From the NCBI GenBank assembly GCA_049976305.1, contig JBMFIM010000007.1:1-42094 (forward strand): DNA of 42,094 nt, read 5' to 3'. Source of the stretch: Candidatus Micrarchaeia archaeon. Its GTDB lineage: Archaea > Micrarchaeota > Micrarchaeia > Micrarchaeales > CABMGC01. This document shows positions 2,845-10,373 of the stretch, piece after piece. Both the position numbers and the translations under genes were made by a program. The first letter of the stretch is position 1, and each line of letters begins with the position of its first letter. Under the pieces are notes generated by a model, which did no database searches, was not told the DNA's origin, and saw only the letters and a program-made list of their open reading frames with translations.

Positions 2845-3019
2845 TTGCTAAAATTTGAGAAATTTATAAGGAATGGCATTTGAAGTTTGTCATAGCTGTT
2901 TGTGTAGTAGTTTTAACCAAATACCATTATTTCAATGCAAAAGAAGCCCGCACCATTTATAGGTTGGTGTCACAAGTTGCAGTGGGAAAAGTTTTTGAGC
3001 TGATAGTACTAATGGAAAG

Positions 3020-3091
3020 GGCCTTGGCCGGGAGTCGGACCCGGTCCTAAGGGTCCACAGCCCTTTATGCAGCCGTTACACCACCAAGGCC
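3020..3091 (-). tRNA. tRNA-His(GUG) with genome-encoded G-1; CCA not encoded
   Basis: Cloverleaf G-GCCTTGG...CCAAGGC-C; anticodon arm AAGGG-CT-GTG-GA-CCCTT; T-loop reads TCCGACT. Confidence 0.95.
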
Positions 3092-3159
3092 ATGATTTGC
3101 TTTTGTATCATCTAATTTTCCCGCTTACTTTTATAAATATGCTTGCAAAAAGTAATATT

Positions 3160-3281
3160 GGCGGGGTAGCTCAGCCTGGTTAGAGCGCTAGACTCATATG
3201 CCTCTGCATATGAGTGATGAGCTTCCAGCGATGATTGGCTGAGAGATCTAGAGGTCGAGGGTTCAAATCACTCCCCCGCCA
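3160..3281 (+). tRNA. tRNA-Met(CAU), probably elongator, with 47-nt intron 3199-3245 at position 37/38
   Basis: GGCGGGG/CCCCGCC acceptor stem; CTAGA-CT-CAT-A|intron|A-TCTAG; canonical BHB (CTCA/TGAG helix, 3-nt bulges TA|T and AG|A, GCC/GGC). Lacks initiator features (no A1-U72, no GGG anticodon stem). Confidence 0.93.
3206..3237 (+). ncRNA. Intron-embedded C'/D' guide module predicted to direct Cm34 of pre-tRNA-Met
   Basis: Guide GCATATGAGT (3206-3215) is complementary to 3192-3201. D' ATGA (3217-3220), stem GCT-TCC-AGC, 3-nt bulge, C' ATGATTG (3231-3237). N+5 base G3212 pairs with C3195 (C34). Confidence 0.7.
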
Positions 3282-6548: not shown

Positions 6549-7735
6549 ATGCATAGAAGCCTTTCAAGACTCTTCCGCGTATTCGGTCCTGCATGGATTA
6601 CAATGCTTGCAGATATGGATGCAAGCAGCATAATAGGCGCAGCCCAGCTTGGCTCTGCTTTCCAATATTCCTTCATTTGATTTCTTTTGCTTCTCATTTT
6701 ACCGCTTTACATTATTCAGGAAGCTTCTGGAAGAATAGGTGCTGTTACCAGGCAGGGCCTTGGCGACACTATAAGAGGCCATTATTCTAAGGCAACAGCA
6801 AGCCTTATGGTCATTCCTATGTTCTTCGCCGATATTGCAACTTACGTTGCAGAATTCTTGGGGATAGGCGTAGGCCTTGAAATACTCGGCATACCACTCT
6901 ATGCAGGCATAATTGCTGCCTACATAATTTTTCTTGTTGTTGCGTTCACGAGGGAATACGAAAGCGCCGAAAGGATACTTGTTGCAGTCTCTGCTTTGCT
7001 TGTTCTTGGTCTTTTTGCAACGCTGCTTTTGCGTGGCGTAAAGCCTTATCCCGTTTTTGTCGCCAAGCCTAGCTCGCAGTATCTTTTCCTTGCTTCTGCC
7101 ACTATAGGTGCTGTTGTCATGCCGTTTATGCTCTTTTTCCAGGCTTCAGCAACAGGGCAAAGATTAGAGAAGGGAGAAAGCACGTTAACGAAAGAGTCTT
7201 GCGGGAAATAAAAGAAAATACGCTTATAGGCGCGATCGTAACAGAGCTCCTTATGGTAGTAGTAGAGATGACATTTGCAGGCATTAGGACAAGCCCCGGC
7301 ACGTTTATCTCCGCGCAGTCCCTCGCCTCTGTTTTGCAACCAGTTGCTGGCAGGTTTTCGCCATATGCTTTTGGGATAGGGCTTATTGCTTCTGGTTTCC
7401 TTGCGTTAATAGTTGTGGCATTGGCGAGCGCTTGGAGCGTTGCAGAAGTCTTGAGAATAAAGAAAAGGCAGCTGCTTTATGCTGTTGAAAGCCTTCCTGC
7501 CGTTCTGCTTGTGCTCCTCATACCTCCTTCGATGCTGGTAAATGGCGTAATAGACTTTCTTGTGGTTTTTGTTTTTGTGCTTCTAGGCCCTGCCGTTATA
7601 CTTGGCATGATTGCCCAAAACAGGAAAATAATGGGGCATTTTGCCTTTTCGAGATATGAGGCAATAGCTTATTGGCTCGCCTCCGCTTTCGTGCTTGTGT
7701 TTGGAATAATTTCGGCGATAATAAGCATATGGTAG
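6549..7735 (+). pseudogene. NRAMP/SLC11-family divalent cation transporter, disrupted
   Basis: ATG 6549: ...FGPAWITMLADMDASSIIGAAQ...YSFI*FLLLLILPLYIIQE. In-frame TGA at 6678-6680, plus a frameshift near 7155-7200 joining ORFs 6687-7211 and 7199-7735 (GAVVMPFMLFFQAS motif). Confidence 0.85.
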
Positions 7736-7810
7736 TGGGCTCGCGGAGATTTGAACTCCGGACCTCCCGATTATCAGTCGGGCGCTCCAACCAGGCTAAG
7801 CTACGGGCCC
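7736..7810 (-). tRNA. tRNA-Ile(GAU)
   Basis: GGGCCCG...CGAGCCC-A; anticodon arm CCCGA-CT-GAT-AA-TCGGG; T-loop TTCAAAT; C5-A68 mismatch. Confidence 0.95.
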
Positions 7811-10313: not shown

Positions 10314-10373
10314 TGTCCTCAGCCGATATAGACTTCATCACATCTCAGCAGTTACTCTATTCTTCACTGGACA
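10314..10373 (-). ncRNA. Box C/D methylation-guide sRNA (double guide)
   Basis: TGTCC-A-GTGAAGA(C)-12 nt-CTGA(D')-GAT-GTGATGA(C')-12 nt-CTGA(D)-GGACA; 5-bp terminal stem; TATA-like TTTAAAA about 20-25 nt upstream. Confidence 0.9.

What the first reader, a model, noticed from the sequence alone, without database searches (positions are those of the whole stretch)
3188..3251. tRNA-Met intron is a minimal half-C/D guide aimed at its own wobble C34
Seen: the 47-nt intron holds GCATATGAGT, a perfect 10-nt complement of ACTCATATGC (A31 to the first 3 intron nt, spanning the 5' splice site). After one spacer nt come D' ATGA, a 3-bp hairpin, a 3-nt bulge and C' ATGATTG. This forms a K-turn with tandem G-A, U-U and a compensatory U-A in place of the usual G-C. 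The fifth nt upstream of D' (G3212) pairs exactly with C34. Established: the N+5 rule, Cm34 in archaeal elongator tRNA-Met, and intron-encoded C/D guides in euryarchaeal pre-tRNA-Trp. Inference: a single C'/D' unit with no terminal C/D pair guides Cm34. The guide duplex excludes the BHB splice fold, so the precursor would behave as a methylate-then-splice switch. Related tRNA-Met intron guides may already be reported in other DPANN (e.g. Nanoarchaeum), so novelty needs a literature check.
Basis: partly seen in the sequence, partly recalled or inferred. Interest (0 to 1): 0.85.

Follow-up and report, generated by a model that had tools for sequence, protein, structure and literature searches.

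The report
Self-aimed methylation guide in tRNA-Met intron
The intron of this small archaeon's methionine tRNA carries a stripped-down RNA guide that folds back onto the tRNA's own first anticodon base and most likely directs its sugar methylation before the intron is cut out; relatives that lost it carry an ordinary free guide RNA for the same base.

Summary
The window is from a Micrarchaeota genome, and the gene is elongator tRNA-Met. The module (antisense to nt 31-35, one spacer base, D' NNGA, stem-loop, C') occurs in 179 of 251 phylum genomes, and also in Nanoarchaeota, Aenigmatarchaeota, Nanohaloarchaea and Hadarchaeota records. The N+5 register on C34 holds in 74 of 78 homology-fetched introns that keep the antisense core. 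The guide co-varies with nt 31: 134 A-U, 34 G-C, no mismatch. Strongest test: 10 of 54 pattern-negative genomes, and 0 of 26 positive ones, encode a free C/D sRNA with the same guide and D'/C' half. No methylation is shown. Action in cis, precision with one K-turn, and gating of splicing are all inferred. Precedent: Randau 2012 reported a stable C/D-like RNA from the N. equitans Met intron with no target predicted; it has this layout. This scan already noted the element on other genomes (e1-7545369, e1-7900621). Verdict: new variant of a known kind.

The parts
3130..3137 (.). TATA-like palindromic element about 23-30 nt upstream of the tRNA, between it and the divergent tRNA-His gene
   Evidence: seen in sequence; function inferred
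3160..3198 (+). 5' exon of elongator tRNA-Met(CAU), nt 1-37
   Evidence: Rfam RF00005; ARAGORN with introns
3192..3201 (+). target strand: A31 to intron nt 3, spanning the 5' splice site; C34 at 3195
3199..3245 (+). 47-nt intron at 37/38
3206..3215 (+). antisense guide; G3212 is the fifth base upstream of D' and pairs with C34
3217..3220 (+). box D' (ATGA); the GA is fixed in register, the first two bases vary, canonical CTGA in 9 of 78
3221..3229 (+). canonical stem-loop of the K-turn; the first two pairs are invariant in 25 of 25 aligned relatives
3230..3237 (+). 3-nt bulge (3230-3232) and box C' (3231-3237)
   Evidence: stem of at least 2 bp + NNU bulge + GA in 175 of 178 matches (the 178 include one bacterial chance hit and some duplicates)
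3237..3246 (+). 3' strand of the bulge-helix-bulge splice motif (intron helix 3237-3239, central helix 3240-3243, 3' bulge 3244-3246)
   Evidence: sequence; energy evaluation
3246..3281 (+). 3' exon, A38 to discriminator A73

Best explanation
The intron is the guide-D'-stem-loop-C' half of a box C/D sRNA built into the pre-tRNA. Steps: (1) the guide folds back on A31 to intron nt 3, a hairpin with a 4-nt loop that hides the 5' splice site (sequence and folding; shown in silico); (2) L7Ae binds the single K-turn and recruits Nop5-fibrillarin (inferred from the motif); (3) fibrillarin 2'-O-methylates C34 by the N+5 rule on the unspliced precursor (inferred from fixed register, covariation and replacement by free sRNAs); (4) the precursor refolds to the BHB and is spliced (required, since the folds exclude each other). 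Confidence that the module guides Cm34 of its own tRNA species is about 0.88. That it acts in cis with one K-turn is about 0.65. That it actively gates splicing is about 0.4.
For: Register: GA sits 3 nt after the antisense core in 74 of 78 introns fetched by homology or exon motif, while those 3 nt vary. Covariation: nt 31 with the last guide base is A-U in 134 and G-C in 34 of 168 distinct module-bearing loci, none mismatched, although the search patterns allowed mismatches; a U-A form occurs in G291. Intron nt 1 pairs as U-A 47, A-U 8, G-C 4 of 69. Four pairs change on both sides, 0 of 500 shuffles reaching this (kin not independent). Natural swap: 10 of 54 pattern-negative genomes versus 0 of 26 positive ones carry a free sRNA with C box, the same guide and D'; 9 are complete four-box RNAs, 1 is cut by a contig end. 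In the 5 of these 10 where the Met gene was located, its intron lacks the module and the free guide pairs 9-11 bp with that genome's own junction. In G000 the matching free sRNA keeps the Leu(CAA) guide but has no Met guide. Specificity: in the Hadarchaeota class sample, 8 of 8 Met-type CAU genes have the module and 0 of 6 Ile2-type ones do; TiaS is present in G263. Machinery: all 42 module-positive genomes of the Nanoarchaeota-phylum sample have fibrillarin; 0 of 16 located Met genes in fibrillarin-negative genomes have the module. The N. equitans intron RNA is stable and abundant. Loops of 3-8 nt and 5-7-bp duplexes in Woesearchaeota records favour cis action.
Against: No methylation, L7Ae binding or RNA data exist for this organism. 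Hardin and Batey (PMC1635284, passages) found single-K-turn hemi-complexes active but not site-specific. Contiguous duplexes of only 5 bp occur in 31 of 178 matches, far below the 10-12-nt guides in the Breuer review. Three congeners (L004-L006) have a mismatch opposite C32. L068 and L075 are off register by one. The non-canonical stem beyond the tandem GA is weak: fourth pair unpaired in 96 of 175. The BHB fold is computed as at least as stable in 33 of 140 loci, including four congeners. The Trp intron guide was shown to act in trans (reviews). 44 of 54 pattern-negative genomes had no free-guide hit, although several of them proved to have the module behind long insertions or had no located Met gene. 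The fibrillarin association is confounded by kinship: Met genes were located in only 16 of 50 fibrillarin-negative genomes, and 7 of 11 fibrillarin-positive genomes in that subset are also intronless.
Confidence: 0.72

Rival explanations
1. Same chemistry, but in trans or in a two-RNA particle: a Nop5 dimer binds two pre-tRNAs (or a pre-tRNA and another K-turn RNA or the excised intron), restoring two K-turns, and one molecule's guide acts on the other.
For: The Trp intron guide acts in trans (reviews). Two box motifs were needed for precision in vitro. The excised N. equitans intron is stable. Guide duplex and K-turn are both kept even when 40-70 nt are inserted between target and guide.
Against: The intramolecular hairpin has pairing probability 1.0 in the window. 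Duplexes of 5-6 bp closed by 3-8-nt loops are too weak for intermolecular targeting. Free sRNAs of the same lineage use 9-11 bp.
Confidence: 0.18
2. The module is a splicing-control or intron-stabilising L7Ae site; the antisense arm only masks the 5' splice site and no methylation occurs.
For: Compensatory pairing extends across the splice site. The two folds are often within a few kcal/mol (median difference -2.65). L7Ae binds K-turns outside C/D particles (recalled).
Against: This does not explain the fixed N+5 register, the absence from Ile2-type CAU genes, or the transfer of the same guide into canonical four-box sRNAs where the module is lost.
Confidence: 0.08
3. The antisense element is a relic duplicate of the BHB 3' strand, and the boxes are chance.
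For: Guide and BHB strand both complement C32-A35, so they share letters.
Against: The guide co-varies with nt 31 and intron nt 1, which the BHB does not use. The guide is better conserved than the BHB strand, which has 4 of 4 pairs in only 46 of 140 loci. The reversed-pattern control gave 0 hits in 251 and in 201 genomes.
Confidence: 0.02

Closest known systems
Stable C/D-like RNA from the 66-nt intron of Nanoarchaeum equitans elongator tRNA-Met (Randau 2012, PMC3491384; seen: passages, section 9, one supplement row)
   Same: Same tRNA and intron position. The sequence in the supplement has guide, one spacer base, D box, GC stem-loop and C-like box in this order. G325 has the same letters at the intron start and shows a 9-bp hairpin to G31 through intron nt 2 with N+5 on C34. 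It is very probably the same element.
   Different: The paper lists 'no prediction' for the target and does not describe self-targeting, exclusion of the BHB fold, or the wider distribution.
Box C/D guide in the euryarchaeal pre-tRNA-Trp intron (Pyrococcus sR50, Haloferax volcanii; seen only through reviews)
   Same: An intron-borne guide for Cm34 of its own tRNA that pairs across the exon-intron junction before splicing.
   Different: The Trp intron has four boxes and two guides (Cm34, Um39) and acts in trans in vitro. Here there is one K-turn and one guide, 4 nt from its target.
Free guides for Cm34 of pre-tRNA-Met: Haloferax sR-tMet and Pyrococcus sR49 (Grosjean 2008, PMC2584109, passages; Joardar 2011 not held)
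   Same: Same target base, with pairing into the intron start. The free sRNAs found here in families f11, f15 and f16 look like this kind.
   Different: They are separately encoded four-box sRNAs. Grosjean 2008 states that the Met guide is 'always exonic'; this intron contradicts that.
Engineered hemi-C/D complexes (Hardin and Batey 2006, PMC1635284, passages)
   Same: One C/D motif and one guide.
   Different: Artificial, with a separate substrate and no site specificity. Here the substrate is tethered and the register is conserved.

Membership tests
Archaeal box C/D methylation guide sRNA | K-turn or K-loop box pair with tandem G.A, bulge U and closing stem | tested here: met
   175 of 178 matches; same form as the D'/C' half of G000's canonical sRNA on C3
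Archaeal box C/D methylation guide sRNA | Antisense guide with the target at N+5 from D or D' | tested here: met
   74 of 78 unbiased loci; covariation
Archaeal box C/D methylation guide sRNA | Bipartite layout: both C/D and C'/D', two guides | tested here: not met
   No conserved second box pair in the intron
Archaeal box C/D methylation guide sRNA | Guide duplex of about 10-12 nt | tested here: inconclusive
   10 bp in the window; contiguous length 5-7 bp in 127 of 178 matches, often extended past a 1-nt bulge
Archaeal box C/D methylation guide sRNA | L7Ae, Nop5 and fibrillarin encoded | tested here: met
Archaeal box C/D methylation guide sRNA | Assembles the RNP and methylates the target | not testable with these tools
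   needs biochemistry
Intron-encoded tRNA-Trp-type guide (sR50 kind) | Host is tRNA-Trp; four boxes guide C34 and U39 | tested here: not met
   Host is tRNA-Met; one guide only. Rfam gave only the tRNA match
Elongator tRNA-Met (versus Ile2 or initiator) | CAU anticodon, not initiator-like, and AUA read by another route | tested here: met
   Separate initiator at C1:76141 and tRNA-Ile(UAU) at C2:37828; no TiaS hit (genome 93.7% complete)
BHB intron at 37/38 | 4-bp helix between two 3-nt bulges, and a splicing endonuclease | tested here: met
   Sequence; PF01974 hit in a 384-aa frame, a size like the three-unit ARMAN enzyme

The most novel reading that the evidence does not exclude
A natural half-C/D enzyme-substrate: one K-turn and a tethered hairpin as short as 5 bp give site-specific Cm34 in cis, the tRNA's own three-way junction replaces the second K-turn, and the hairpin blocks splicing until the particle has acted. 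The half-guide is ancestral across DPANN and Hadarchaeota and moves between the intron and the D' slot of a free Leu(CAA) sRNA.
Probability: 0.35. Interest if true: 0.85.

Novelty: new variant of a known kind. Interest (0 to 1): 0.68.

Why it matters
It assigns a target to the orphan N. equitans Met-intron RNA and overturns the printed rule that the Met Cm34 guide is always outside the intron. It supplies a natural, minimal test case for two open points in C/D biology: whether one K-turn can be site-specific, and whether an intron guide can act in cis. It gives a reason why these tRNA introns are kept in reduced genomes. It also shows a guide module exchanging between an intron and a free sRNA.

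Tried and rejected
Alternative terminal C/D pair in the window (3214-3220 with 3239-3242): not conserved, and the 10 nt upstream of that D word have no other complement in the genome. Fibrillarin-loss test within Micrarchaeota: uninformative, 245 of 251 have it. A naive 42:0 versus 109:50 fibrillarin table was set aside because the exon pattern missed 75 of 80 module-negative genomes; the looser search is reported instead. IMG/VR scan: 11 hits, none a tRNA. One search gave 5 hits, of which 2 (L247, L248) were chance; one search gave 12 genomes, of which 2 (L252, L253) were chance. Met genes of G162, G109, G181, G205 and G247 were not located. Five bacterial chance hits among the 80 loci shown were dropped before the counts. 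Sequencing runs: no RNA holder listed. Literature searches found no paper assigning a self-target to a Met intron. The library lacks most subscription papers; Joardar 2011 was not held, and Clouet d'Orval 2001, Singh 2004 and Tripp 2017 were not read. Figure 6 of Randau 2012 was seen only as a legend.

Full report
Observation. The window holds an intron-containing tRNA gene at 3160-3281(+). The guide 3206-3215 is the exact complement of A31 to intron nt 3, and G3212, fifth base upstream of D' (3217-3220), pairs with C34. The guide hairpin and the bulge-helix-bulge use the same bases. In the window the guide fold is computed about 10 kcal/mol more stable (K-turn pairs are not modelled).

Host and gene. 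Named records with the same intron design are Micrarchaeota. The genome (723 kb, 93.7% complete) encodes fibrillarin, Nop5, two L7Ae-family proteins and a splicing endonuclease. It has a separate initiator tRNA and a tRNA-Ile(UAU) and gave no TiaS hit, so this is elongator tRNA-Met.

Conservation. A full-length intron-bearing match was found in 36 of 40 relatives. A module pattern hit 179 of 251 phylum genomes with 0 reversed-pattern hits, against 215 of 251 for the exon motif alone, which includes some chance hits. Several negatives have the module behind long insertions. A named scan showed 80 loci of at least 119. Five were bacterial chance hits; the rest are tRNA-Met genes in records labelled Micrarchaeota, Woesearchaeota/Nanoarchaeota, Aenigmatarchaeota, Nanohaloarchaea, Parvarchaeota, Hadarchaeota, unclassified archaea and 'Methanosarcinales'. 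In a Nanoarchaeota-phylum sample 42 of 201 genomes matched, control 0.

Register and covariation. Ninety loci were fetched by homology or exon motif, without the module in the query pattern. Of these 88 were anchored, 78 had the antisense core, and 74 of the 78 had GA exactly 3 nt later, while those 3 nt vary. Across 179 distinct anchored loci, 168 have the module; this pool includes pattern-selected loci, so it is not a rate. Nt 31 and the last guide base are A-U in 134 and G-C in 34, never mismatched, and U-A in G291. Pairing at intron nt 1 also co-varies. On a 25-row alignment four pairs change on both sides, with 0 of 500 shuffles as high; relatedness inflates this. The K-turn anatomy holds in 175 of 178 matches.

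Natural swap. Family f11 lacks the module in 11 of 11 genomes but mostly keeps fibrillarin. I searched 54 of the 72 pattern-negative genomes and 26 positive ones for a C box followed by the guide and a D' box. Twelve negatives and no positives hit; 10 hits are real sRNAs, 9 with all four boxes. Their D' guide puts N+5 on Met C34. In the 5 cases where the Met gene was found, the guide pairs 9-11 bp with that genome's own exon-intron junction, and the intron has no module. Their D guide fits C34 of tRNA-Leu(CAA), located in 3 of 3 genomes searched. G000 has the Leu guide sRNA with an unrelated D' guide. The intron module is therefore interchangeable with the D'/C' half of a canonical C/D sRNA aimed at the same base. 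This is the strongest evidence for function.

Specificity controls. Among 14 CAU tRNA loci printed from the 30 loci of the Hadarchaeota class sample, 8 of 8 Met-type genes have the module, all with canonical CUGA. None of 6 Ile2-type genes does (type assigned from the acceptor stem, an inference). G263 has TiaS. All 42 module-positive Nanoarchaeota-phylum genomes have fibrillarin. Met genes were located in 16 of 50 fibrillarin-negative genomes and none has the module (14 intronless). In the 11 of 30 fibrillarin-positive, pattern-negative genomes where they were located, 4 have it and 7 are intronless. Kinship limits the weight of this.

Mechanism and doubts. Shown: anatomy, register, covariation, swap. 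Inferred: L7Ae binding, methylation, cis action and order of events. Short loops and 5-7-bp duplexes in Woesearchaeota records argue for cis. Against a precise single-K-turn reaction stands Hardin and Batey's non-specific hemi-complex. Also against are the mismatch opposite C32 in L004-L006, the shifted register in L068 and L075, and the trans mode of the Trp intron. The guide fold is more stable in 107 of 140 loci, median 2.65 kcal/mol. This fits an equilibrium that proteins could tip, but it does not show gating.

Prior art. Randau 2012 (section 9 and a supplement row read) describes a stable RNA from the N. equitans Met intron as a possible C/D sRNA, target 'no prediction'. G325 has the same letters at the intron start and shows the self-hairpin with N+5 on C34. 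Grosjean 2008 (passages) says the Met guide is always exonic. The reviews read in passages name only the Trp intron as functional. Nine searches found no self-target assignment, but the library is incomplete and bioRxiv supplements are closed. This scan's own notes report the same element on other genomes, and similar modules in Gln, Leu, Phe, Lys, Trp and Cys introns. These are not independent support. A word search found no note on the free-sRNA swap.

Unpublished genomes. G038 (L025, L090) and G210 are inside the tallies; no conclusion depends on them.

Verdict. The element is real, conserved and very probably a guide for Cm34. It works like a C/D guide but fails the bipartite criterion, so it is a new variant of a known kind with a partial published precedent. 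Interest 0.68.

Noticed in passing
G000:C13:15125-15256 (-); L087-L116: The tRNA-Trp intron (miscalled Arg by ARAGORN) carries a near-identical D'-stem-loop-C' module with no conserved guide before it, then the C34 guide and in many genomes a second D'/C' loop. This is a circularly permuted two-box layout unlike the Haloferax order.
   Followed up: partly
window 10319-10367 (-): A canonical four-box C/D sRNA candidate lies in the window itself; three more are on C1, C3 and C9. Targets were not sought except for the C1 Leu(CAA) guide.
   Followed up: no
L054 (G157), L086 (G239), L298 (G069): Module-less Met introns contain a copy of the Leu(CAA) anticodon-loop word, so the free sRNA's second guide could also grip the Met intron.
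   Followed up: partly
L133, L163, L166, L186, L203, L207, L279 and others: By eye, many Woesearchaeota-type introns have a guide-complementary stretch 3' of C' that could capture the guide in the splice-competent fold; not counted.
   Followed up: no
L068 (G135), L075 (G237): In one genus the GA is off register by one base, which suggests a shifted target or decay.
   Followed up: no
L133, L136, L139, L151, L163, L166, L181, L195, L197, L205: Ten records labelled Methanosarcinales have tRNA-Met introns of the Woesearchaeota type; the labels may be wrong.
   Followed up: no
window 3019-3090 (-) and 7735-7810 (-): tRNA-His lies divergent to the Met gene 69 nt away, and a tRNA-Ile(GAU) gene lies further on.
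   Followed up: no
L045, L046: tRNA-Ile(UAU) genes of relatives carry about 30-nt introns without this module.
   Followed up: no
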